A stretch of DNA of 32,000 bases from an uncultured Pelagibacteraceae bacterium (GTDB lineage Bacteria; Pseudomonadota; Alphaproteobacteria; Pelagibacterales; Pelagibacteraceae). The DNA is taken from contig CACBQD010000006.1 of assembly GCA_902541285.1 (NCBI GenBank), positions 1-32,000 of the forward strand. The letters are read 5' to 3'. This document shows, piece by piece, positions 2,668 to 13,228 of this stretch (position 1 is the first letter of the stretch; every line of letters starts with the position of its first letter). A program made the position numbers and the translations under genes. Under the pieces are notes generated by a model, which was not told the DNA's origin, did not search any database, and saw only the letters and a program-made list of their open reading frames with translations.

Positions 2668-4431
2668 TTATTTAGATTTTCTATTTTTTTTTATAATTGA
2701 TGAATTCCAGATATAGTCATGATAGCGATCTATTGACCATGGGAGAATAATTGGTCTAAAATTTACACTAAATTTATTATATTCTTGATAATTTATTCTT
2801 TTCGCAGTCATTAGAGAATAAATTTCATTTTTTAACACATCAGCTTTAGACGCAACAACTAAATTTGATAAAAAACCTTTACTGGCATATAAGCTATTTT
2901 TTGAATTTAGAAAATCGGAATAAACTATACTCTCAGGGGTTTTGTTACGATTTGAAAAAACTTTTTCACCAAAATTCAAGTTTAAATTTGAAAAAATAAT
3001 TATTCCAAAAAATAAAATAAAAAAATTAAATTTATTATAATTATATTTGTTAAATGATTTGATAAGAAGGTATGTGAATAAAGCTGGTAGCACATATAAT
3101 ATATGAGCAACTTGTGAAGTGGTTTTATTGCCAAACATATTTTCATTTCTTAAAAAAATTATAATTAAAAGCGAGAAAATTAAAAAATAAGAAAAAATAT
3201 TATTTTTTTTAAAATTTTTCGTAATTAAATAAAAAGGAATTACAAAAAAATAAATAAAAACAATTAGTATTTTATATAAATCATAATTGATTTTGAGAAA
3301 ATTTATTTTGTAAGCTTCTAAAATATTTTTTAGGTTGGTTTCATTTTTCTCGAAATTTAAAATATATTGACTAGAGTTTGTAATATTTTCTATATTTTGA
3401 GTTATAAAACCTGAAGGTATCCAACCTACTATTAATAAAGATTGAAAATATTCACTTAAGTTAAAAGGATTAAAAAAGGCTATTTTTGAATTAGCAACAG
3501 GTGATTGGACTAATACCCATGTTAATAAATTTAGAAAAACTAAAAAAGATAAAATATAAAATAAAAAATCTTTTCTTATAAACTTATATTTGAAAAAATA
3601 GTAAATTGGGAAAATAAGAAAAATAAAAATTATACCTGGTTTTGTCACAGTAAGTATTAATGCCAAATATGAATTAAATTTAATATTTGGCTCATCGTCA
3701 TTATCAAAATTAAATAAAAAAATAAAAAAAATAATTAAAGAAAAAATGCCAGAAAATGATAACGAATATGAAAAAAAATTTTCAAATACAAACAATAAAA
3801 TTACAAATAATATAAATATTAATATATATTTTATTTTACTCATATTTTTATTAGCCTGGTAAAAGAAAAAACAAATTGCTGTAAGAATACTACATATTAA
3901 AAGGTATCTTGCTTCTAATAGAGAGATTAAATTTAAATCCGAAATTAAAATTGAAGATGCGGTAAGTACAGATGTTGGAAAAAGAGGATGCGCTGTTAAT
4001 CTTGATGGAAAATAAGTAAAATTTTTTATGTTACCTATATAATCAGAATAATAAAGTTCAATTGATGGACTCCAGTATACTACATCATGAGATTCATAAA
4101 CTAAGTTTTTAAAATGAAATTGATGTAATAATAATAGAAAAAAAACATTTATAATTAAAAAAATTATAATTTTTGTTTTATTTTTAATGATGTCTTGTAA
4201 AAAAAAAATGTATTTTTTTTTATAAATAAAAATAAATAAATTTAAAATTAACACTGCGTAAGTGATAAAATATACATAGCCAGGTAAAATTCGAAATAAA
4301 AAAGAGATAGATAATGCAATTGTAAATAAGGCTGTTAAGTATCCAATTACAGTTCTGTTGGTTAAATTATATCCAAAAAATAAAATTAAAAGTTGTGTAA
4401 AGAAATATTGTAAGTAAACATAATTATGCAT
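2668..4431 (-). CDS. Large polytopic integral membrane protein, family unknown (candidate GT-C-type glycosyltransferase or glycan polymerase)
   Basis: 587-aa ORF dominated by many hydrophobic F/I/L-rich segments separated by short polar loops. There is an acidic/aromatic loop (ESHDVVYWSPSIELYYSDY) after the first helices. I recognise no soluble-domain motifs. Confidence 0.55.
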   Translation of the reverse strand: MHNYVYLQYFFTQLLILFFGYNLTNRTVIGYLTALFTIALSISFLFRILPGYVYFITYAVLILNLFIFIYKKKYIFFLQDIIKNKTKIIIFLIINVFFLLLLHQFHFKNLVYESHDVVYWSPSIELYYSDYIGNIKNFTYFPSRLTAHPLFPTSVLTASSILISDLNLISLLEARYLLICSILTAICFFFYQANKNMSKIKYILIFILFVILLFVFENFFSYSLSFSGIFSLIIFFIFLFNFDNDDEPNIKFNSYLALILTVTKPGIIFIFLIFPIYYFFKYKFIRKDFLFYILSFLVFLNLLTWVLVQSPVANSKIAFFNPFNLSEYFQSLLIVGWIPSGFITQNIENITNSSQYILNFEKNETNLKNILEAYKINFLKINYDLYKILIVFIYFFVIPFYLITKNFKKNNIFSYFLIFSLLIIIFLRNENMFGNKTTSQVAHILYVLPALFTYLLIKSFNKYNYNKFNFFILFFGIIIFSNLNLNFGEKVFSNRNKTPESIVYSDFLNSKNSLYASKGFLSNLVVASKADVLKNEIYSLMTAKRINYQEYNKFSVNFRPIILPWSIDRYHDYIWNSSIIKKNRKSK

Positions 4432-4444
4432 AAATTAAGATCTA

Positions 4445-5494
4445 ATGTTGTTAAATACAAAATTTTGGAAAAACAAAAAAGTTTTAATTACTGGCTGTAC
4501 TGGTTTCAGCGGATCATGGCTGATAATTTTTTTAAATATTTTGAGGTCTAGAGTTATTGGATACTCTCTTTCACCACCTTCTAAACCCAATCTTTTTAAT
4601 GTGCTAGGCTTAAAAAATAATATTCGTTTACATAATGGAGACATTAATAATTACAATAACTTAAAAAAAATAATCTATAAAGAAAAACCTGATATTATTT
4701 TTCATTTAGCGGCAAATGCTATTGTATTAGATTGTCATCGAAACCCGATTAAAACTTATAAAACAAATTCATTTGGAGTTTTGAATCTTTTAGAAATATT
4801 AAGACATTACAAAAAAAAAATTACAGTTAATATAATTACATCAGATAAATGCTACACAAATAAACAAAAAAAAAATGCATTATTTAATGAAGAAAGTTCA
4901 TTAGGTGGAGATGATGTTTACAGTGCATCAAAGGCTGTTGCTGAAATAATGGTTAATTCTTATCAAAAATACTTTTCTAATAATATTAAAATTTCAACAA
5001 TACGTAGTGGTAATATAATTGGAGGTGGTGATTGGGGAAAATACAGATTAATCACAGATATTGTTCTTTCTAAGTATAAAAATAAAAAATTTAATATTAG
5101 AAATTTAAATGCAATTAGACCATGGCAACATGTATATGATGTCATTCATGCATATTTATTAATTGCTCAATATACTTATATGACAAATAAATTTCAAAAT
5201 TGGAATGTTGCGCCAAATAATACCAGAATTTCAGTTAAAAAAATATGTTCTTTCTTTTTAAAAAAAAAAGAGTTTAAAATTAAATCTAAATATAAAAATA
5301 ATATAGAAAAAAAATTTTTATTACTTAATAGTAAAAAAATTAGAAAAATTATTAAGTGGAAACCATCTTTCTCGTATAAAGAAATGATGTACGACATTGA
5401 AAAATGGTACCATCTTTATTATAATTCAAAAAACATAAAGCAGCATAGTTATGATACTGCCAAATTATTTTTGAAAAGTATAAAGCTTAAATGA
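4445..5494 (+). CDS. rfbG: CDP-glucose 4,6-dehydratase
   Basis: 349 aa. The N-terminus FWKNKKVLITGCTGFSGSWL is typical of RfbG/DdhB. It has the SDR catalytic YSASK and a PWQHV block. Its stop overlaps the next start (ATGA). Confidence 0.8.
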   Translation: MLLNTKFWKNKKVLITGCTGFSGSWLIIFLNILRSRVIGYSLSPPSKPNLFNVLGLKNNIRLHNGDINNYNNLKKIIYKEKPDIIFHLAANAIVLDCHRNPIKTYKTNSFGVLNLLEILRHYKKKITVNIITSDKCYTNKQKKNALFNEESSLGGDDVYSASKAVAEIMVNSYQKYFSNNIKISTIRSGNIIGGGDWGKYRLITDIVLSKYKNKKFNIRNLNAIRPWQHVYDVIHAYLLIAQYTYMTNKFQNWNVAPNNTRISVKKICSFFLKKKEFKIKSKYKNNIEKKFLLLNSKKIRKIIKWKPSFSYKEMMYDIEKWYHLYYNSKNIKQHSYDTAKLFLKSIKLK

Positions 5495-6237
5495 ATCAAA
5501 ATAATTATAATCAAAATAAAGAATTATTTTTTAAAAAAGGTTACTTTGTAGTTAGAAGTGTAATTAAAAAAAGTACAATTAAAAAATTATTGGTAGAGAT
5601 TTATAAAGCAAAAAATACTGATAAATATACTGACACCAGGGGCAACCTTAGAAGAATTGAAAGACTTTACAACAAAGGTAAAACTTTAAGTGATTTAAAT
5701 CATAAAATCTTATTAATATTAAAAAGAGTTTTTGCAGAAAAATTTGTAATTTTCAAAGATAAATTTAATGCAAAGCCACCAGGTGGTGATGGATTTTATG
5801 CTCATTTTGACGGAGTATTTAAATTTACTAACCAAAAAAATGAAAAAAAAAACGGATGGTATGAGTATACTGATTTTTTTGTAAATTGTTTAATTGCACT
5901 CGATAAATGCAACAAGCGTAATGGATCTATTGAACTTTCAAATTTTCATAAAGGTAGTTTTGAAGATTTATTTAAAAAAACAAAAATGGATGGAACTCCA
6001 GCTTTAAGTGAAAAGACTTTAAAAAAGACAAAGTTTAATCTTATTAATTTAAATGAGGGAGATATGGTTTTTTTTTCAAATAAATGTCCTCATCAGTCCA
6101 AAAAAAATAATACAAATCATAGCAGAAGAATTCTTTACTACACCTATACAAAACTAAAAGACAAATCAAAATATTCACAATATTATAAAGATAAAATAAG
6201 AAGTAAAAATAAACTTAAAGCTTTAGAAGAGAAATAG
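5491..6237 (+). CDS. Phytanoyl-CoA dioxygenase (PhyH)-family Fe(II)/2-oxoglutarate-dependent dioxygenase
   Basis: 248 aa. It has an HxD iron motif (YAHFDG), a distal His (KCPHQS) and a downstream Arg pair (HSRRILYYTY), as in PhyH-type 2OG oxygenases. It shows ATGA coupling to rfbG. Confidence 0.65.
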   Translation: MNQNNYNQNKELFFKKGYFVVRSVIKKSTIKKLLVEIYKAKNTDKYTDTRGNLRRIERLYNKGKTLSDLNHKILLILKRVFAEKFVIFKDKFNAKPPGGDGFYAHFDGVFKFTNQKNEKKNGWYEYTDFFVNCLIALDKCNKRNGSIELSNFHKGSFEDLFKKTKMDGTPALSEKTLKKTKFNLINLNEGDMVFFSNKCPHQSKKNNTNHSRRILYYTYTKLKDKSKYSQYYKDKIRSKNKLKALEEK

Positions 6238-6323: not shown

Positions 6324-7625
6324 ATGAAAAAAAAAACTGTATATGTTGGTTTAGCTGCTGATATTCTCCATAAAGGACATATTAATATTCTTAAAACTGC
6401 CAATAGATATGGAAATGTTATTGTTGGACTTTTGACAGATCAGGCAATTGCAAGTTACAAAAATATTCCTTACTTAAATTATGAAAAAAGGAAAGTTGTA
6501 ATAGAAAATATTAGATATGTAAAAAAAGTAATACCTCAGGATACATTAGATTACATATATAATTTAAAATTAATAAAACCTGATTATGTGGTTCACGGAG
6601 ATGATTGGAAAACAGGTGTTCAAAAAAAAACAAGAGAAAGAGTAATAAAAACATTAAAAAAATGGTCTGGCAAACTAATAGAACCAAAATATACAAAAAA
6701 TATATCATCTACTTTAATCAAGAAAGAAATGAACAATTTAATTTATTCACCAGAAAATAGAGTTTCAAGATTAAAAAGATTGATTAATTCAAAAGAAATT
6801 GTAAGAATTTTAGAGTCTCATAATTCTCTTACCGGATTAATTATTGATAAAATTAATGTTGAAAAAAATAAAAAGGTTGTTGAATTTGATGGAATGTGGT
6901 CATCAAGTTTGACTGACTCTGCAACTAAAGGTCTTCCTGATAATTCCTCACTATCATTTTCTGCTCGGATTGCATCTTTAAACGATATGATGGATGTAAC
7001 AGCTAAACCACTAGTTTTTGACGCAGATAATGGTGGCCAGATAGAACATTTACCATTTTTAGTTAGATCTTTAGAGAGATCAGGGGCATCTGCAATTATT
7101 ATGGAGGATAAAGTAGGTCTTAAAAAAAATTCACTATTCAAAGATCAATCTGGGGCTAAACAAGATAAACCACAACTTTTTGCAAAAAAAATTAAAAAAA
7201 TTTGTAACTCAAGACAGTCACAAGATTTTATGGTTATAGCTAGAATTGAAAGTTTTATAGTGGGTAAAAGTCTAAAAGATGCTTTACACAGGGCAGAAAT
7301 TTACTCAAAAGCTGGAGCAGATGCTATTTTAATACACAGTAAGGAAAAAACACCTGCTCAAATTTTTTCATTTGCTAAAGAATTTAAAAAAAGTAAGAAT
7401 TTTAAACCTTTAGTTTCTGTTCCATCTACATATTCAAAAGTTTATGAAAAAGATTTAATAAAAAATGGCTTTAAATTAGTTATCTATGCCAATCAATTAT
7501 TAAGAGCTGCTTATCCCGCTATGCAAAATACAGCACGAACCATATTAAAAAATAAAAGAGCTTTCGAAGCTGATAAAAAAATTATTTCAATTAAAGAAAT
7601 AATTAATTTAGTTAAAAATGATTAA
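6324..7625 (+). CDS. pepM: Bifunctional HxGH-type cytidylyltransferase / phosphoenolpyruvate phosphomutase
   Basis: 433 aa. Residues 1 to about 135 carry VYVGLAADILHKGHINIL, RYVKKVI and VVHGDDW, as in TagD/ECT/CCT-class cytidylyltransferases. Residues from about 150 to 433 carry ESHNSLTGL, FDGMWSSSLTDSATKGLPD, DADNGGQ and EDKVGLKKNS. The last is an exact EDKX5NS PEP-mutase discriminator. Confidence 0.85.
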   Translation: MKKKTVYVGLAADILHKGHINILKTANRYGNVIVGLLTDQAIASYKNIPYLNYEKRKVVIENIRYVKKVIPQDTLDYIYNLKLIKPDYVVHGDDWKTGVQKKTRERVIKTLKKWSGKLIEPKYTKNISSTLIKKEMNNLIYSPENRVSRLKRLINSKEIVRILESHNSLTGLIIDKINVEKNKKVVEFDGMWSSSLTDSATKGLPDNSSLSFSARIASLNDMMDVTAKPLVFDADNGGQIEHLPFLVRSLERSGASAIIMEDKVGLKKNSLFKDQSGAKQDKPQLFAKKIKKICNSRQSQDFMVIARIESFIVGKSLKDALHRAEIYSKAGADAILIHSKEKTPAQIFSFAKEFKKSKNFKPLVSVPSTYSKVYEKDLIKNGFKLVIYANQLLRAAYPAMQNTARTILKNKRAFEADKKIISIKEIINLVKND

Positions 7626-8718
7626 AGTTACTACTTTAATTAATTTATTAAAAAAAAATGGTATAGATTTTTATACTGGAGTCCCAGACAGTATTTTAAA
7701 GGAACTTTCTTTTTCACTGCAAAGTAAAAATAAAAAAAAACATATTATTGCAACAAATGAAGGCTCAGCCGTCTCAATTGGTATTGGCCATTATCTATCT
7801 ACAAAAAAATTACCTGCTATTTACATGCAAAATTCTGGTTTATCTAATGCTTTAAACCCATTAATCTCAATAGCTCATAAAAAAGTATATTCCATTCCAT
7901 TAATTTTAATAATTGGATGGAGAGGCTCTCCACGAATTAAAGATGAACCTCAACATAATGTAAAAGGTAAAATTACTAAACAAATTTTAAAACTACTTAA
8001 TATAAAATATACCGTTTTACGATCAACTTCTGATTTAAATAAATTTCACAAACAAATTAAAGTAGCGAAAAAAGATAAATCCATAGTAGCTTGCTTAATA
8101 GAGCAGGGCACTCTTGAAAAAAATAAAAAAATTAAAGCAAAAAAGAATTTTTATAATTTAGACAAAGAGTTTTTTTTAAAAAATTTATTAAAGAATATAA
8201 AAAATCAAACAAAGATTATTTCTAGTACAGGATATAATTCAAGAGAATTAATGTATATAAAGGATAAATATAAATTCAAAAATAGTAAAGATTTTTATAT
8301 GGTTGGTGGCATGGGGCATACTTCTTCTGTAGCTCTTGGATATTCTCTGTTCAACAAAAAAAAAATTATTTGTATAGATGGTGACGGATCACTTATAATG
8401 CATTTAGGTTCAATAAAAACAGCAGGAACTTTTGCAAATAAAAATTTTAAATATATTTTGTTAAATAATAATACTCATGATTCTGTGGGTGGCCAAAGCA
8501 CTTACACAAATAATATTGATTTTGAAAAACTTTCGAAAAGTTTAGGATTTAAAAAATTTCATTCTATAAAAAGTAAAAAAAATTTAAATCAAAATATTAA
8601 AAAATTTCTGTACGAAAAAAATTTAGGTTTTTTAGAGGTACAAGTCTCTAAAAGTAAAATAAAAAAACTTCCTAGACCAACAGATTTGATTAAAATAAAA
8701 AATGAATTTATGAGTTAA
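7618..8718 (+). CDS. ppd: Phosphonopyruvate decarboxylase (ThDP-dependent)
   Basis: 366 aa. The N-terminus (GIDFYTGVPDS) is typical of Ppd/sulfopyruvate-decarboxylase-like enzymes. The ThDP motif is GDG-X25-NN (GDGSLIMH...ILLNNNTHDSVGGQ). An 8-nt overlap (ATGATTAA) links it to pepM. Confidence 0.8.
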   Translation: MIKVTTLINLLKKNGIDFYTGVPDSILKELSFSLQSKNKKKHIIATNEGSAVSIGIGHYLSTKKLPAIYMQNSGLSNALNPLISIAHKKVYSIPLILIIGWRGSPRIKDEPQHNVKGKITKQILKLLNIKYTVLRSTSDLNKFHKQIKVAKKDKSIVACLIEQGTLEKNKKIKAKKNFYNLDKEFFLKNLLKNIKNQTKIISSTGYNSRELMYIKDKYKFKNSKDFYMVGGMGHTSSVALGYSLFNKKKIICIDGDGSLIMHLGSIKTAGTFANKNFKYILLNNNTHDSVGGQSTYTNNIDFEKLSKSLGFKKFHSIKSKKNLNQNIKKFLYEKNLGFLEVQVSKSKIKKLPRPTDLIKIKNEFMS

Positions 8719-9822
8719 ATGATCAATTCTATTGAGGATATAAAAAAATTCATTAACGACAAAAAACATAAAAAAATATTTGTTTTGTGTGGAAAAAAAT
8801 CTTATGAAACCTCTGGTGCAAAAGAACTTTTTAAAGCAATGCTTTCTGAGAAAGAAATTAATATTTTTTACAAAAAATCCGAATTACCTATTCTTAAAGA
8901 ACTGATAGAAATTATTATAAATGTAAAAAATTTTAAACCAGATTTAATTTTAGCAGTTGGTGGTGGGGCGATTATTGATTATGCTAAAATAGCAAATGTC
9001 GTCGATGTAAGACCTGATCTTGCAGAACTAATAAAAAATTATGTATATCCATTTAAAAAAAAATATACAAAACTAGCAGTAATCCCAACTACTGCAGGAT
9101 CTGGAGCTGAGGTTACTTCAAATGCAGTAATTTATGTAGATGGAATTAAACATTCTTTTGAAAGTGAGTTATTAATACCAGATAATTTTTTTTTAATCCC
9201 AGAATTTTTAATTTCTGCACCAAAAAAAATTAAAGCATCAGCCGGGTTTGATGCTATCGCACAAGCTTTAGAATCATTGATTTCAAAAAAATCAAATTCT
9301 AAAAGTGTCGAATATGCAACAAAATCCTTAGAAATCTCAACGAAGAGTTTTATATCATTTTTAGACAATCCAAATAAAATAAACGCTACTGAAATGAGTA
9401 TAGCATCTAATTTGGCAGGAAAGGCGATTAGCATATCTAAAACAACTGCTCCACATGCAACATCATATCCATTTACATCTTTATTTCAAATTAGCCACGG
9501 TCATGCAGTAAGTCTTTTTTTTGAAAATTTTTTTAAATTTAATTTTGATAATTTAGAAAGATCAGAAACAAAATTTGACTTAAAAAAAAGGTTTGATTTA
9601 ATTTTCAGAATTTTTGAAGTAAAAAATATTGAAAATTTTACATCAAAAATTTCATCAATAAAAAAAAAAGCAAATCTTGAAGATAATTTGCTCAATTTAA
9701 ATATTAATTTAAAAAATAATTCTGAAGAAATAATAAAAGGCATAAATTTATTAAGATTAGGAAATAATCCAATAAAAATAGATGGAAAAGATATCTATGA
9801 CATAATTAAAAAAAATAATTAG
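8719..9822 (+). CDS. Group III iron-containing alcohol dehydrogenase, probable phosphonoacetaldehyde reductase (forms 2-hydroxyethylphosphonate)
   Basis: 367 aa. It has GGGAIIDYAK (the GGGSxxD nucleotide motif), PTTAGSGAEVT and His-rich metal motifs (APHATSYPF, SHGHAVS). It starts on the base after the ppd stop. Confidence 0.7.
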   Translation: MINSIEDIKKFINDKKHKKIFVLCGKKSYETSGAKELFKAMLSEKEINIFYKKSELPILKELIEIIINVKNFKPDLILAVGGGAIIDYAKIANVVDVRPDLAELIKNYVYPFKKKYTKLAVIPTTAGSGAEVTSNAVIYVDGIKHSFESELLIPDNFFLIPEFLISAPKKIKASAGFDAIAQALESLISKKSNSKSVEYATKSLEISTKSFISFLDNPNKINATEMSIASNLAGKAISISKTTAPHATSYPFTSLFQISHGHAVSLFFENFFKFNFDNLERSETKFDLKKRFDLIFRIFEVKNIENFTSKISSIKKKANLEDNLLNLNINLKNNSEEIIKGINLLRLGNNPIKIDGKDIYDIIKKNN

Positions 9823-9892
9823 GAGATGTCTGTAAATTTGAAATATATAAGTATAATATCTTTTAATTATTAAAAAATAAATTTTGAAATAT

Positions 9893-10672
9893 ATGAAATG
9901 TGTAATATTAGCAGGTGGACTCGGTACTAGATTATTTGAAGAGACACAAACTAAGCCTAAAGCTTTAGTAGAAGTAGGTGGCAAAACATTAATAGAGCAC
10001 ATCATAGATCAATTTTCTAAACATGGAATTAATGATTTTATTGTATGTCTCGGTTATAAGGGAAATCTTATAAAAAAATATTTTGTTGATTATTATAACA
10101 ATAATTTAGATTTTTCGATAGATTTTTCAAAAAACAAATTTTTTTTTGAAAAAAAGTTTAACAGAAAATGGAAAATAACTTTTGTAAATACAGGTCTAGA
10201 TACAGGAACCGCAGGCAGAATTAAGCTAATAAAAAATTATTTGAAAAATGAAAAATCTTTTTTTCTTACATATAGTGATGGGGTATCAAATATAAACTTA
10301 AAAAAACTCCTTAAATCCCACATTAAAAGTAAAAAAAAAGTTACAATGTGTGTGACCAGACCAAAAAATAGATATGGAATTGCTAACATAAAAAAAAACA
10401 TTCTTGTATCATTTAATGAAAAAAAAAGAGTCGATAAAAATAATAACTGGATAAATGCTGGTTTCTTCGTGTTAAATACAAATGTAATTAGTCAATTAAG
10501 TAGTGTTAAGGAATATTTTGAGGCCGAGCCACTCTCTCAACTTATAAAAAAAAATAACGTATCTATTTATAGACACAATGACTTTTGGAGATCTATTGAT
10601 ACTTTAAAAGATAAAACTGAGTTGGAAAAAATATGGAAAAAATATAAAACTTGGGATTTAAAGGGAATATAA
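9893..10672 (+). CDS. rfbF: Glucose-1-phosphate cytidylyltransferase
   Basis: MKCVILAGGLGTRLFEETQTKPKALVEVGGKTLIEHI...DFIVCLGYKG is nearly collinear with Salmonella RfbF/DdhA. I prefer the ATG at 9893 to the TTG at 9884 given in the ORF track. Confidence 0.8.
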   Translation: MKCVILAGGLGTRLFEETQTKPKALVEVGGKTLIEHIIDQFSKHGINDFIVCLGYKGNLIKKYFVDYYNNNLDFSIDFSKNKFFFEKKFNRKWKITFVNTGLDTGTAGRIKLIKNYLKNEKSFFLTYSDGVSNINLKKLLKSHIKSKKKVTMCVTRPKNRYGIANIKKNILVSFNEKKRVDKNNNWINAGFFVLNTNVISQLSSVKEYFEAEPLSQLIKKNNVSIYRHNDFWRSIDTLKDKTELEKIWKKYKTWDLKGI

Positions 10673-10677
10673 CTTTT

Positions 10678-11319
10678 TTATGACCTAAGATATGTATAAA
10701 TTAGTAAAATAAAATAATAGAGCAGAGTATAGACGCTCATCAACAGAAGATACTCCTTGTGAAGGTTTAAAATTATAAAGCATGATCCCCAAAATAACAT
10801 ATTTGTTCTTGTAAATATAAAATATTCAATTAATTTAAAAAAAGTACTCTTTCTTAAATTGTTTTGATCAAATTTAGGTAAAAAAACTATCATAGAAAAA
10901 TAAATATTATCTATACAAAATCTAAAACTAATAAAAATAAGTCCACAAATTAAAAAATAAATATTATTCTCGAATATATAATTTGAGGATATAATTGCTA
11001 AAATAAAAAAATTATCTGCAAGCCTATCTAATGTACAATCCAAATGAGCACCAAACGAAGACTGCAATTTTTTTTTAATTGCTAGATCTCCATCAGCACA
11101 ATCAAAAATAAGAGATAAATTTATTAAAATAAAACTAATTAAATTAAAATAATTATTTCCTTTAAAAATAATAAATGGCAGAGAAACAACTATTAAAAAA
11201 AATGATAAATAAGAAAGGTTATTTGGAGTTATTTTAGTATTTATTATTTTATTAACAATATATCTTGAAAAAATTCTATAAATTTTTTCTATACCTATAT
11301 CAGACCTTACCGCACTCAT
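10678..11319 (-). CDS. CDP-alcohol phosphatidyltransferase-family integral membrane transferase
   Basis: 213 aa with several hydrophobic helices. DCADGDLAIKKKLQSSFGAHLDCTLDRLAD fits D-x2-DG-x2-A(R)-x8-G-x3-D-x3-D, with Ile in place of the usual Arg. Confidence 0.75.
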   Translation of the reverse strand: MSAVRSDIGIEKIYRIFSRYIVNKIINTKITPNNLSYLSFFLIVVSLPFIIFKGNNYFNLISFILINLSLIFDCADGDLAIKKKLQSSFGAHLDCTLDRLADNFFILAIISSNYIFENNIYFLICGLIFISFRFCIDNIYFSMIVFLPKFDQNNLRKSTFFKLIEYFIFTRTNMLFWGSCFIILNLHKEYLLLMSVYTLLYYFILLIYTYLRS

Positions 11320-11339: not shown

Positions 11340-12275
11340 TTATTCAATACTTTTTATAATTATTGTTTTATCAAATTTTTTTAATTGATTATAAATTTTT
11401 CCAACGTATTCTCCAATAATACCAATAAAAATACTGTTTAAAGCAAGTATTATCAGCATCAGAAAAACTAAAGTTGTAAAGCCTTGAGGACTACTAGCAG
11501 GGTCAAAAATTTTTTGAATAAAATAATAAATTAATCCTACTACAGAAAAAAAGGAAATCATTAATCCAAACAATGTAGCCATTCTTAGCGGGGCTATAGT
11601 ATGATTTGTAATATTTTTAAATGATTCCATTATATATTTAAAAAAATTAAATTTAGTCTTTCCAGCTTTTCTTTCCTCTCTTACATGCTCTATTCCATAA
11701 TTCTTAAAACCTAAAGAGTAAATAAATCCCCTTAAATAAGTGTCACGTTCATCCATAGATTTAATTATTTTGATAATTTTTTCATCAATTAACGAGAAAT
11801 CTCCAACATCATTTTTTAACTCAGAATGACTTAAAAAATTAATAGTTCTATAGAAAGCTTTTCTTAAATTTTTTATTATAAAATTTTCTTTTCTATTTTT
11901 TCTAATTCCATAAACATAATCATACCCTTCTTCCCATTTTTTTATGAATTCTTCAATCAATTCTGGAGGATCTTGTAAGTCGCAGTCTAATTGAATAGCT
12001 GCTGATCCGTTTGCTAATTTATATGCGTTTATTAATGATCTTTCTTTTCCTATATTATTTGAGAATGAAAAACATTTTACATTTTTATCAGTCAAGTTTA
12101 TTTTTTTTATAATTTCAAAACTATTATCTGAACTGTTATTATCTGTGAATATAATTTCATACTTATAAACTTTACTATATTTAACAAAAATATTTTTTAT
12201 TTTTTCATAAATTGATTTAATATTTTCTTCTTCGTTTAAGATAGGTATACAAATACTAATTATTTTTTTTTCCAT
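11340..12275 (-). CDS. GT2 polyprenyl-phosphate glycosyltransferase (ArnC/GtrB/DPM-synthase-like) with C-terminal membrane helices
   Basis: 311 aa. Motifs are ISICIPILNEEENI, IIFTDNNSSDNS, QLDCDLQDPPE, GIRKNRKE and VGDFSLID. Two C-terminal TM segments end in IGIIGEYVGKIY, which is typical of this subfamily. Confidence 0.8.
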   Translation of the reverse strand: MEKKIISICIPILNEEENIKSIYEKIKNIFVKYSKVYKYEIIFTDNNSSDNSFEIIKKINLTDKNVKCFSFSNNIGKERSLINAYKLANGSAAIQLDCDLQDPPELIEEFIKKWEEGYDYVYGIRKNRKENFIIKNLRKAFYRTINFLSHSELKNDVGDFSLIDEKIIKIIKSMDERDTYLRGFIYSLGFKNYGIEHVREERKAGKTKFNFFKYIMESFKNITNHTIAPLRMATLFGLMISFFSVVGLIYYFIQKIFDPASSPQGFTTLVFLMLIILALNSIFIGIIGEYVGKIYNQLKKFDKTIIIKSIE

Positions 12276-12319: not shown

Positions 12320-13228
12320 TTATTTTTTTCTAATCAAATATTCTATGTAAAAAAACACTCCCATTATAGCTGATGGAATACCTCTGCTTATAAAGAATAT
12401 TGAAATCAATATAATTTCCTCAGGAGACAATAATTTGCTAAAAATTAATAGGATAAAAAACTCTCTAAAACCAATACCATTATAAGTTATGGGTATAAAT
12501 CCAATTAGTGATATTAAGCTTACAAATGAAATGATTTTAAAAAATGAAAAATTATCAACTTCTAAAAATTTAACAAAAATATAGAAGTGAACAAAAGTTA
12601 AGAAAATAAATATTATATTTATAAATAAAATAACATGAAAATTTTTATTATTTTTTGTATATTTTAAAAATATTTTTCCCAATTTATATAATATGTTAAC
12701 TTTTATTAAGTTAAATAAATACTGAATATTTTTTAAAATTAAAAAATAGACCAAAACAAATAATATTGTTAAAAGTATGTAGGTTAACTTAATCTCATTT
12801 AAATAAAAAATAATGAAAATAGATAAAAAAACATAAACAGTTATCTCAAAAAACTTATCGACAATCATTATTTCTAAATTTTTTAAATAATTGATTTTAA
12901 AAAATTTCTTTAATAAATAAATTTTTTTTACTTCCCCTAATTTAAAAGGTAATATAAAATTTAAAAAACTTGAGATAAAAAATATTTTTAAAAGTTTTTG
13001 TTCTTTAATTTTTTTTCCTAAGAGTAAGGTAAATTTTTTAACATTTAGTAGTGTTTGGACTATACAAATTATATATGATGAAAAAAAAATATTATTATTT
13101 AGATTTATTAATAAAAGTTGAAATTTATCAAAATCAACTTTTTTAAGAAAAAAAAAAATTAAAATTAAGCTTATAATAAAAATAAAAAACGAAAAAAGAT
13201 TTTTTAGCGATTTAAAATAATAAAACAT
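12320..13228 (-). CDS. Polytopic membrane protein, possibly a flippase-like (LPG-synthase-TM/UPF0104-type) partner of the adjacent GT2
   Basis: 302 aa and almost entirely hydrophobic helices. The assignment rests only on size, topology and position directly downstream of the ArnC-like gene. Confidence 0.4.
   Translation of the reverse strand: MFYYFKSLKNLFSFFIFIISLILIFFFLKKVDFDKFQLLLINLNNNIFFSSYIICIVQTLLNVKKFTLLLGKKIKEQKLLKIFFISSFLNFILPFKLGEVKKIYLLKKFFKINYLKNLEIMIVDKFFEITVYVFLSIFIIFYLNEIKLTYILLTILFVLVYFLILKNIQYLFNLIKVNILYKLGKIFLKYTKNNKNFHVILFINIIFIFLTFVHFYIFVKFLEVDNFSFFKIISFVSLISLIGFIPITYNGIGFREFFILLIFSKLLSPEEIILISIFFISRGIPSAIMGVFFYIEYLIRKK

What the first reader, a model, noticed from the sequence alone, without database searches (positions are those of the whole stretch)
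6324..7625. PEP mutase fused to an HxGH (TagD/ECT/CCT-class) cytidylyltransferase domain
Seen: residues 1 to about 135 carry VYVGLAADILHKGHINIL (HxGH), RYVKKVI and VVHGDDW. These are the motif set of glycerol-3-phosphate, phosphoethanolamine and phosphocholine cytidylyltransferases. A roughly 15-aa linker joins them to the mutase domain in one uninterrupted ORF. Established: CMP activation of phosphonates is a common step in bacterial phosphonate pathways. It is characterised for LicC-type PntC enzymes, and eukaryotic ECT/CCT enzymes handle AEP for phosphonolipids. Inference: here the activating enzyme belongs to the HIGH-motif cytidylyltransferase fold rather than the LicC fold. It is physically fused to the first enzyme of the pathway, which is thermodynamically unfavourable, although it should act on the last intermediate. 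This could mean a multienzyme complex or channel, or a substrate other than the end product.
Basis: partly seen in the sequence, partly recalled or inferred. Interest (0 to 1): 0.7.

Follow-up and report, generated by a model that had tools for sequence, protein, structure and literature searches.

The report
Fom1-type PEP mutase/HEP cytidylyltransferase in SAR11
This is a real two-domain enzyme of a marine SAR11 bacterium that makes the first carbon-phosphorus bond and later attaches CMP to the pathway product 2-hydroxyethylphosphonate, but the fusion is already described (Fom1 of fosfomycin biosynthesis), common, and correctly named by public annotation pipelines.

Summary
Window 6324..7625 (+) is one uninterrupted 433-aa ORF. 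It has an N-terminal HxGH cytidylyltransferase domain (PF01467, aa 13-134) and a C-terminal PEP mutase domain (PF13714; TIGR02320 above its cutoff; EDKVGLKKNS present).

The fusion is not new. The N-domain is 58% identical to the crystallised cytidylyltransferase domain of Fom1 (PDB 5x3d, solved with HEP-CMP bound). In Fom1 that domain converts 2-hydroxyethylphosphonate (HEP) plus CTP to CMP-HEP. Rice et al. 2019 reported PF01467 fused to 23.6% of non-redundant RefSeq PEP mutases. JGI already names proteins 87-92% identical to this one [quoted passage not shown].

The next two genes are phosphonopyruvate decarboxylase and an Fe-alcohol dehydrogenase, so the operon makes HEP, the domain's expected substrate. 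In the 80 closest genomes, from well over a dozen phyla including DPANN archaea, the fusion is present in 80/80. Ppd plus Fe-ADH are found within 6 kb, nearly always directly downstream, in 72/80.

No fosfomycin tailoring genes are present. The setting is a SAR11 glycan island, so CMP-HEP is most likely a donor for decorating a surface glycan or lipid. That last step is inferred.

Verdict: already known, low interest.

The parts
6324..7625 (+). Bifunctional ORF (433 aa): Fom1-type HEP cytidylyltransferase domain + PEP mutase domain
   Evidence: Single ORF. PF01467 + PF13714. 100%-identical and 85-95%-identical full-length proteins exist in public data, some named 'phosphoenolpyruvate phosphomutase / 2-hydroxyethylphosphonate cytidylyltransferase' by JGI.
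6324..6725 (+). N-terminal cytidylyltransferase (CyTase) domain, aa 1-134; HKGH at nt 6369-6380
   Evidence: Best solved relative is 5x3d (Fom1 CyTase domain with HEP-CMP bound), E 4e-51, 58% identity over 130 aa with no gaps. ECT 3elb scores 3e-18 and TagD 1coz 2e-11. 52 positions are >=95% conserved across 82 family members, 51 of them kept in the window protein (S11 is A here).
6726..6761 (+). Short fixed-length connector, aa 135-146 (EMNNLIYSPENR)
   Evidence: The inter-anchor distance is 11 aa in 74 of 80 loci. The E-I-G-T-T-P consensus continues into the natural N-terminus of PepM.
6762..7622 (+). PEP mutase domain, aa 147-433; EDKVGLKKNS at nt 7104-7133
   Evidence: TIGR02320 scores 357.6 bits, above the 319.55 cutoff. 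Mussel PepM 1m1b matches at E 3.5e-46 over aa 146-433. The EDKx5NS motif is read directly from the sequence.
7618..8718 (+). Phosphonopyruvate decarboxylase (Ppd); its start overlaps the fusion's stop by 8 nt
   Evidence: TIGR03297 scores 372.8 bits, above the 312.5 cutoff. TPP_enzyme_N/C domains. Conserved next to the fusion, nearly always directly downstream.
8719..9822 (+). Fe-dependent alcohol dehydrogenase, predicted phosphonoacetaldehyde reductase (makes HEP)
   Evidence: PF00465 + PF25137. It starts 1 nt after the Ppd stop. A Ppd + Fe-ADH pair lies within 6 kb of the fusion in 72/80 related loci, including one Ppd-FeADH fusion. Its substrate is inferred from context, since no phosphonate-specific model reaches its cutoff.
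10678..11319 (-). CDP-alcohol phosphotransferase-family membrane protein; candidate user of CMP-HEP (inferred)
   Evidence: PF01066, E 1.4e-11. The signature D-x2-DG-x2-A-(I)-x8-G-x3-D-x3-D has 7 of 8 residues. Homologues sit next to the fusion in 12 of 80 loci.
5491..6237 (+). PhyH-family Fe(II)/2OG dioxygenase directly upstream; possible phosphonate-tailoring hydroxylase (speculative)
   Evidence: PF05721, E 5e-12. Weak hit to methylphosphonate hydroxylase PhnY* NF052437, 68.8 bits against a cutoff of 500. A 56%-identical homologue lies upstream of the fusion in L009 only.

Best explanation
The ORF encodes a Fom1-type bifunctional enzyme of a SAR11 (Pelagibacter) bacterium.

The C-terminal domain is a PEP mutase that converts phosphoenolpyruvate to phosphonopyruvate. 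The next two genes in the operon carry the pathway forward. Phosphonopyruvate decarboxylase makes phosphonoacetaldehyde, which pulls the unfavourable mutase equilibrium. An Fe-alcohol dehydrogenase then reduces it to 2-hydroxyethylphosphonate (HEP).

The N-terminal HxGH domain then uses CTP to form CMP-5'-HEP plus pyrophosphate, as shown for Fom1.

Unlike in fosfomycin producers, nothing in the window resembles Fom3, FomD or HppE. The cluster lies in a glycan-biosynthesis island. CMP-HEP therefore most likely serves as an activated donor, a phosphonate analogue of CDP-glycerol or CDP-ethanolamine. A CDP-alcohol-type transferase would move its HEP-phosphonyl group onto a surface glycan, glycoprotein or lipid. 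The candidate here is the PF01066 protein at 10678-11319.

Shown here: domain identities, the fusion, operon structure and conservation. Taken from the literature: Fom1 chemistry. Inferred: HEP specificity of this orthologue, the role of the Fe-ADH, and the fate of CMP-HEP.
For: - **Domain calls and cutoffs:**
- **Similarity to Fom1:** 58% ungapped identity to the Fom1 CyTase domain, which was crystallised with HEP-CMP.
- **Fom1 biochemistry:** summarised in PMC6697681, PMC9088020 and PMC8158854.
- **Public naming:** JGI names 87-92%-identical proteins as PEP phosphomutase / HEP cytidylyltransferase.
- **Operon structure:** the fusion, Ppd and Fe-ADH have overlapping or abutting coding regions.
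- **Conservation:** in the 80 most similar species-level genomes (Pelagibacteraceae, Gammaproteobacteria, Bacteroidota, Verrucomicrobiota, Kiritimatiellia, Spirochaetia, Desulfobacterota, Chloroflexota, Patescibacteria, Woesearchaeota, Nanoarchaeota and others), the fusion is present in 80/80 and EDKx5NS in 78/80. Ppd + Fe-ADH lie within 6 kb in 72/80, and 6 of the 8 exceptions are contigs that end within 2 kb.
- **Recurrent neighbours are CDP-alcohol-type or related phosphotransferases:** TagF-like Glyphos_transf (19+4 loci), CDP-OH_P_transf (12), LicD (6), Sulfatase-fold (6).
- **No competing pathway genes:** Pfam scans of the window ORFs of 100 aa or more, leaving out four short ORFs nested antisense inside larger genes, found no radical-SAM, cupin/HEPD/MpnS or aminotransferase gene.
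- **Glycan setting:** the window encodes CDP-glucose, dTDP-sugar and heptose pathways, GT2s, an ABC exporter and a Wzy_C-like protein. This matches the SAR11 phosphonoglycoprotein hypothesis of Acker et al. 2022.
Against: - No enzymology exists for this orthologue or any SAR11 orthologue, so substrate specificity is by homology and context only.
- The Fe-ADH matches no phosphonate-specific model above its cutoff.
- The candidate transferase is on the opposite strand in a separate operon, lacks the canonical Arg of the CDP-alcohol signature, and is not found next to the fusion in the other SAR11 loci examined.
- A PhyH-like dioxygenase lies immediately upstream, so the true head group could be a hydroxylated HEP.
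- Published surveys note PF01467-Ppm fusions in AEP-type clusters as well. The domain class as a whole is therefore not strictly HEP-specific.
Confidence: 0.8

Rival explanations
1. The CyTase domain activates a hydroxylated derivative rather than HEP itself. The upstream PhyH-like dioxygenase would make this derivative (for example 1,2-dihydroxyethylphosphonate). Alternatively, CMP-HEP is hydroxylated after activation.
For: A PhyH-family Fe/2OG dioxygenase lies 86 nt upstream on the same strand. Its only named relative is a phosphonate hydroxylase, PhnY*, at 68.8 bits. A 56%-identical copy sits upstream of the fusion in L009. From my own knowledge, dioxygenases that hydroxylate HEP (DhpA) and HEP/DHEP-bearing phosphonoglycans are known.
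Against: The dioxygenase is absent from the great majority of the related loci (only L009 carries a homologue of it next to the fusion), while the N-domain stays highly conserved. The score is far below the family cutoff of 500. The closest characterised N-domain homologue uses HEP.
Confidence: 0.1
2. As in fosfomycin biosynthesis, cytidylylation is transient. CMP-HEP would be a handle for further small-molecule tailoring and would later be hydrolysed, not a donor for surface decoration.
For: This is the only experimentally established role of a Fom1-type CyTase domain.
Against: The window has no cobalamin/radical-SAM methyltransferase, and nothing resembling FomD or HppE. The context is glycan biosynthesis. 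Across phyla the recurrent neighbours are TagF-like, CDP-OH, LicD and sulfatase-fold transferases and glycosyltransferases.
Confidence: 0.05
3. The N-domain is an ordinary glycerol-3-phosphate, phosphoethanolamine or phosphocholine cytidylyltransferase serving teichoic-acid-like or lipid synthesis, fused to PepM only by genomic accident.
For: It shares the fold and the HxGH, RYV and GDDW motifs with TagD, ECT and CCT.
Against: TIGR01518 scores 66.4 bits against a cutoff of 165.4. E-values are 2e-11 (TagD) and 3e-18 (ECT) against 4e-51 for Fom1. The TagD substrate lysines K44 and K46 (numbering from my own knowledge of TagD) align to Y45 and N47, and the first residue of the C-terminal motif, Arg in TagD by my recollection, is Tyr here. 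The fusion and its Ppd/Fe-ADH partners are conserved across many phyla, which is not accidental.
Confidence: 0.03
4. The fusion is an assembly or sequencing artefact, for example a frameshift in a poly-A run joining two genes.
For: The ORF contains several A8-A10 runs.
Against: Full-length collinear homologues come from many independent assemblies and sources and from 80/80 genomes in many phyla. The connector length is fixed.
Confidence: 0.01

Closest known systems
Fom1 of Streptomyces wedmorensis / S. fradiae (bifunctional PEP mutase / 2-hydroxyethylphosphonate cytidylyltransferase; CyTase domain structure PDB 5x3d)
   Same: It has the same two domains in the same order. The N-domain is 58% identical without gaps, and the PepM domain carries EDKx5NS. 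It is partnered with a phosphonopyruvate decarboxylase and an Fe-ADH-type phosphonoacetaldehyde reductase, so HEP is the expected substrate.
   Different: Different organism and pathway setting. This is a SAR11 glycan island with no Fom3, FomD or HppE. CMP-HEP is therefore probably a transfer donor rather than a transient intermediate. This orthologue has not been characterised biochemically.
PntC phosphonyl-tailoring cytidylyltransferases (LicC-like, PF12804), often fused to Ppm (Rice et al. 2019)
   Same: The pathway logic is the same: CMP activation of a phosphonate for cell-surface tailoring, frequently fused to PEP mutase.
   Different: The fold is unrelated (PF12804, not PF01467). The characterised substrate is AEP, not HEP. 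The window protein has no PF12804 match.
TagD / GCT glycerol-3-phosphate cytidylyltransferase, and ECT/CCT
   Same: Same HxGH nucleotidyltransferase fold. It shares the HxGH, RYVxxVI and GDDW motifs and the ISST-type C-terminal motif.
   Different: The relationship is distant (E 2e-11 to 3e-18; TIGR01518 at 66.4 bits, far below the 165.4 cutoff). The substrate-side residues differ, and these enzymes are stand-alone or tandem rather than fused to PepM.
PhpF (phosphonoformate cytidylyltransferase, PF01467) and FrbH (PF12804 cytidylyltransferase-decarboxylase)
   Same: These are other precedents for CMP activation of phosphonates in natural-product pathways.
   Different: They have different substrates and are not fused to PepM. 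I did not compare them directly here.

Membership tests
Fom1-type bifunctional CyTase-PEP mutase | N-terminal PF01467 HxGH cytidylyltransferase domain closely related to the Fom1 CyTase domain | tested here: met
   PF01467 E 1e-15. 5x3d is the top PDB hit, E 4e-51, 58% identity over 130 aa with no gaps. The entry title was confirmed.
Fom1-type bifunctional CyTase-PEP mutase | C-terminal true PEP mutase (EDKxxxxxNS motif; equivalog model above cutoff) in the same polypeptide | tested here: met
   EDKVGLKKNS at aa 261-270. TIGR02320 scores 357.6, above 319.55. Single ORF.
Fom1-type bifunctional CyTase-PEP mutase | Genomic partnership with phosphonopyruvate decarboxylase and phosphonoacetaldehyde reductase (an HEP-forming route) | tested here: met
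   Ppd TIGR03297 scores 372.8, above 312.5, and an Fe-ADH lies directly downstream. The pair is conserved in 72/80 related loci.
Fom1-type bifunctional CyTase-PEP mutase | CTP + HEP -> CMP-HEP + PPi activity | not testable with these tools
   Requires enzymology. It is established only for Fom1.
Fosfomycin (Streptomyces-type) biosynthetic cluster | Presence of Fom3 (B12/radical-SAM methyltransferase), FomD (CMP-HPP hydrolase) and Fom4/HppE | tested here: not met
   No radical-SAM or B12-binding protein, nor anything else resembling these three enzymes, was found among the window ORFs of 100 aa or more that were scanned with Pfam; four short antisense-nested ORFs were left out.
TagD/GCT glycerol-3-phosphate cytidylyltransferase | Score above the TIGR01518 equivalog cutoff; conserved substrate lysines and the Arg-initiated C-terminal motif (RTEGISTT as I recall it) | tested here: not met
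   66.4 bits against a cutoff of 165.4. In the alignment to 1coz, K44 and K46 correspond to Y45 and N47. The motif reads YTKNISST. The TagD residue numbering and the TagD motif sequence are from my own knowledge.
PntC (LicC-like phosphonate cytidylyltransferase) | PF12804/PF00483-type nucleotidyltransferase fold | tested here: not met
   The fusion protein has no PF12804 or PF00483 match. The only such proteins nearby are sugar-1-phosphate nucleotidyltransferases, for example 9884-10672, which scores 277 bits on TIGR02623 (cutoff 300.25).

The most novel reading that the evidence does not exclude
The first novel reading is that, in SAR11, CMP-HEP made by this enzyme is the direct donor for the HEP esters on surface glycans or glycoproteins. 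[quoted passage not shown] Transfer would be carried out by strain-variable CDP-alcohol-type enzymes: here the atypical PF01066 protein at 10678-11319, elsewhere TagF-like, LicD or sulfatase-fold proteins.

A second strand is that the fixed-length, conserved connector reflects an obligatory quaternary arrangement coupling the entry and exit steps of the pathway.
Probability: 0.4. Interest if true: 0.45.

Novelty: already known. Interest (0 to 1): 0.15.

Why it matters
The fusion itself adds nothing new. It is the Fom1 architecture, which has been catalogued at scale and is annotated automatically.

Its modest value is contextual. It places a complete PEP -> CMP-HEP module in a SAR11 surface-glycan island. 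That is consistent with proposals that abundant marine bacteria decorate their surfaces with phosphonates and so feed the oceanic phosphonate and methane cycle. The open question is which transferase uses CMP-HEP and on what acceptor. That question lies outside the finding as stated.

Tried and rejected
- **Structure prediction.** Only close homologues (85-100% identity) were eligible for the alignment. The model was poor (mean pLDDT 66.6, pTM 0.59). It recovers the PepM and 5x3d folds but cannot be used for inter-domain geometry, and the tool returns no coordinates or PAE.
- **Primary paper.** I tried to read Cho et al. 2017 for the HEP-binding residues, but it is not held. A text search for '5X3D' found nothing. 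The entry's identity was confirmed through the fold-search description instead.
- **PhyH-like neighbour.** A search against PDB sequences found no meaningful hit.
- **Frameshift artefact.** Considered and rejected.
- **TagD/ECT/CCT orthology.** Considered and rejected.
- **Fosfomycin-type, MpnS-type and AEP-type pathways.** Considered and rejected for this window. No radical-SAM, cupin or aminotransferase gene was found in it.
- **Representative-library search with the N-domain**. It gave 4454 hits at E<=1e-3 and 174 at E<=1e-30. Many are gene fragments, so protein lengths could not be turned into clean architecture counts. A few have the domain at the C-terminus or in tandem. I did not follow these up.
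Full report
**1. Observation**

Window 6324..7625 (+) is a single ATG-initiated ORF of 433 codons ending in TAA.

- VYVGLAADILHKGHINIL at aa 6-23
- RYVKKVI at aa 64-70
- VVHGDDW at aa 89-95

A fourth motif is also present, YTKNISST at aa 123-130. It corresponds to the TagD C-terminal motif that I recall as RTEGISTT (own knowledge).

Pfam places PF01467 (CTP_transf_like) at aa 13-134 (E 1e-15) and PF13714 (PEP_mutase) at aa 150-408 (E 4e-48). The C-domain passes the NCBIfam equivalog model for PEP mutase (TIGR02320, 357.6 bits, cutoff 319.55). It carries the diagnostic EDKxxxxxNS motif (EDKVGLKKNS, aa 261-270, nt 7104-7133). Both Rice et al. 2019 and Acker et al. 2022 use this motif to separate true PepM from other isocitrate-lyase-superfamily members.

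The fusion is not a frameshift artefact. The best 120 database proteins are 85-100% identical and full-length. They come from NCBI, ENA, JGI and Tara, and all have both domains. So do 80 of 80 related genomic loci.

**2. Source and setting**

The window has 22% G+C. Its closest relatives are Candidatus Pelagibacter / Pelagibacteraceae genomes.

The fusion's stop codon overlaps by 8 nt the start of a phosphonopyruvate decarboxylase (7618-8718; TIGR03297 372.8 bits, cutoff 312.5). That gene is followed after 0 nt by an Fe-dependent alcohol dehydrogenase (8719-9822). Together these are the three enzymes of the PEP -> phosphonopyruvate -> phosphonoacetaldehyde -> 2-hydroxyethylphosphonate (HEP) route, which the literature describes for Fom1/Fom2/FomC and PhpC.

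The rest of the window is a glycan-biosynthesis island:

- CDP-glucose 4,6-dehydratase and glucose-1-phosphate cytidylyltransferase
- dTDP-sugar genes and heptose-activation genes
- GT2 glycosyltransferases
- an ABC exporter
- a Wzy_C-like protein

In Pelagibacter sp. RS40 the same three-gene cassette abuts the 3' end of the 23S rRNA gene. From my own knowledge, this is the position of the SAR11 hypervariable region 2.

**3. What the N-domain is**

Its best solved relative by far is PDB 5x3d (E 4e-51; 58% identity over 130 residues without a gap). The entry is titled 'Crystal structure of HEP-CMP-bound form of cytidylyltransferase (CyTase) domain of Fom1 from Streptomyces wedmorensis'.

Other HxGH enzymes are much more distant:

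| Enzyme | PDB | E-value |
|---|---|---|
| ECT | 3elb | 3e-18 |
| TagD | 1coz | 2e-11 |
| CCT | 9hsg / 9hsm / 4zcp | 6e-5 |

The TagD equivalog model scores 66.4 bits against a cutoff of 165.4.

In the alignment to TagD, the positions of the substrate-side lysines K44 and K46 (numbering from my own knowledge) are Y45 and N47. The first residue of the C-terminal motif, Arg in TagD by my recollection, is Tyr here. Both features are shared with Fom1 and are >=95% conserved among 82 family members.

It belongs, however, to the Fom1 subfamily, not to the phospho-alcohol cytidylyltransferases.

**4. Prior knowledge**

Fom1 is a bifunctional enzyme. Its N-terminal CyTase domain converts HEP and CTP to CMP-HEP, and its C-terminal domain is the PEP mutase (Cho et al. 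2017, as summarised in PMC6697681, PMC9088020 and PMC8158854).

Rice et al. 2019 then inventoried Ppm fusions in RefSeq. Of 1485 non-redundant Ppm proteins, 59.5% are fused. PF12804 accounts for about 33% and PF01467 for 23.6%, 'exemplified by the Fom1 CyTase'. Li and Horsman 2022 also list PF01467-Ppm fusions.

JGI already names proteins 87-92% identical to this one 'phosphoenolpyruvate phosphomutase / 2-hydroxyethylphosphonate cytidylyltransferase'.

**5. New comparative evidence gathered here**

I scanned one genome per GTDB species with two N-domain motifs. The best 80 were kept. They span Pelagibacteraceae, Gammaproteobacteria, Bacteroidota, Verrucomicrobiota/Kiritimatiellia, Spirochaetia, Desulfobacterota, Chloroflexota, Planctomycetota, Acidobacteria, Gemmatimonadetes, Campylobacterota, several candidate phyla, Patescibacteria, Woesearchaeota and Nanoarchaeota.

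In all 80 loci the N-domain is fused upstream of a PEP_mutase-family domain, and 78 have EDKx5NS.

- 71 loci have separate Ppd and Fe-ADH homologues within 6 kb, in all but two directly downstream.
- One more has them as a single Ppd-FeADH fusion.
- Six of the eight exceptions are contigs that end within 2 kb of the fusion.

This tight association with the HEP-forming reductase, rather than with an AEP transaminase, independently supports HEP as the substrate of this subfamily.

The connector between the domains is fixed in length (74/80) and partly conserved (E-I-G-T-T-P). It runs straight into the natural PepM N-terminus. This suggests a defined geometry rather than a floppy tether.

**6. 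Fate of CMP-HEP (inferred)**

Pfam scans of the window ORFs of 100 aa or more, leaving out four short ORFs nested antisense inside larger genes, found no radical-SAM/B12 methyltransferase, cupin (HEPD/MpnS-type) protein or aminotransferase. Nothing resembles FomD or HppE either. A fosfomycin-like or methylphosphonate pathway is therefore not encoded here.

Across the 80 loci, the recurrent non-core neighbours are enzymes that use CDP-alcohol donors or transfer phospho-alcohols:

| Neighbour family | Loci |
|---|---|
| TagF-like Glyphos_transf | 19 + 4 |
| CDP-OH_P_transf | 12 |
| LicD | 6 |
| Sulfatase-fold | 6 |

Glycosyltransferases also recur.

The window itself has a PF01066 protein at 10678-11319 (-). 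It keeps 7 of the 8 signature residues (D-x2-DG-x2-A-[I]-x8-G-x3-D-x3-D). It sits in an operon with a GT2 and an LPG_synthase_TM-type membrane protein.

The most economical reading is that CMP-HEP is a donor for HEP-phosphonylation of a surface glycan, glycoprotein or lipid. This agrees with the phosphonoglycoprotein hypothesis for SAR11 and Prochlorococcus. It is not demonstrated. The other SAR11 loci carry different candidate transferases, for example a Sulfatase/Phosphodiest protein in RS40.

**7. Why fuse the first and last enzyme?**

No tool result addresses this directly. The two intermediate steps are on separate polypeptides, so a simple two-site channel is unlikely. Stoichiometric co-production of the entry and exit activities, or a fixed PepM-tetramer / CyTase-dimer assembly, are possible explanations (inference).

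My AlphaFold2 attempt was too uncertain to say more (pLDDT 66.6, pTM 0.59).

**8. Verdict**

The fold, the fusion and action on a late intermediate are correct. The implied novelty is not.
- The feature is an uncharacterised orthologue of a known, structurally and biochemically defined, widely distributed and automatically annotated bifunctional enzyme.
- Novelty: already known.
- Interest: low (0.15).
- The residual interest lies in the unidentified CMP-HEP transferase and acceptor in SAR11, and in the upstream PhyH-like dioxygenase. Neither is part of the original claim.

Noticed in passing
window 5491-6237 (+): A PhyH-family Fe(II)/2OG dioxygenase lies 86 nt upstream of the fusion. Its only named relative is the methylphosphonate hydroxylase PhnY* (68.8 bits against a cutoff of 500), and it has no PDB sequence relative. 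A 56%-identical copy sits upstream of the fusion in SAR11 locus L009 only. It could hydroxylate HEP or CMP-HEP.
   Followed up: partly
window 10678-11319 (-), with 11340-12275 (-) and 12320-13228 (-): A CDP-alcohol phosphotransferase-family protein whose signature has Ile in place of the canonical Arg (DCADGDLAI...G...D...D). It shares an operon with a GT2 and an LPG_synthase_TM-type membrane protein. Homologues flank the fusion in 12 of 80 distant loci.
   Followed up: partly
window 2668-4431 (-): A 587-aa, very hydrophobic polytopic membrane ORF with no Pfam or NCBIfam match, inside the glycan island. It might be an uncharacterised glycan or phosphonyl transferase, or a polymerase.
   Followed up: no
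window 135-146 aa of the fusion (nt 6726-6761); alignment of 80 loci: The connector between the CyTase and PepM domains has a fixed length (11 aa between anchors in 74/80 loci) and a conserved E-I-G-T-T-P sequence across phyla. SAR11 has diverged to N-L-I-Y-S-P.
   Followed up: partly
L024 7312-9420 (+): In a gammaproteobacterial genome (Psp_hYS2021), phosphonopyruvate decarboxylase and the Fe-ADH are fused into one 702-aa ORF directly after the CyTase-PepM fusion. Four activities therefore sit on two polypeptides.
   Followed up: partly
L057 5998-7290 (+); L082 5575-7296 (+): These are atypical family members. L057 (Chitinophagaceae) has the Fom1-type CyTase fused to a PEP_mutase-family domain only 28% identical to the window's. 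That domain lacks EDKx5NS, and the locus has an Fe-ADH but no Ppd nearby. L082 lacks the motif, has neither Ppd nor Fe-ADH within 5 kb, and has an N-terminal extension of about 140 aa, which may be an ORF-calling artefact.
   Followed up: no
L001 13609-18254 (-): In Pelagibacter sp. RS40 the fusion-Ppd-FeADH cassette ends 98 nt from the 3' end of the 23S rRNA gene (23S, two tRNAs, 16S). This places the cassette at the rRNA-adjacent hypervariable region.
   Followed up: yes
one search hit list (e.g. P0143, P0153, P0168, P0225, P0231; P0121, P0122): Some close N-domain relatives carry the domain at the C-terminus of a 310-480-aa protein or as two tandem copies. These are architectures other than CyTase-PepM. 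Many entries are gene fragments, so I did not resolve this.
   Followed up: no
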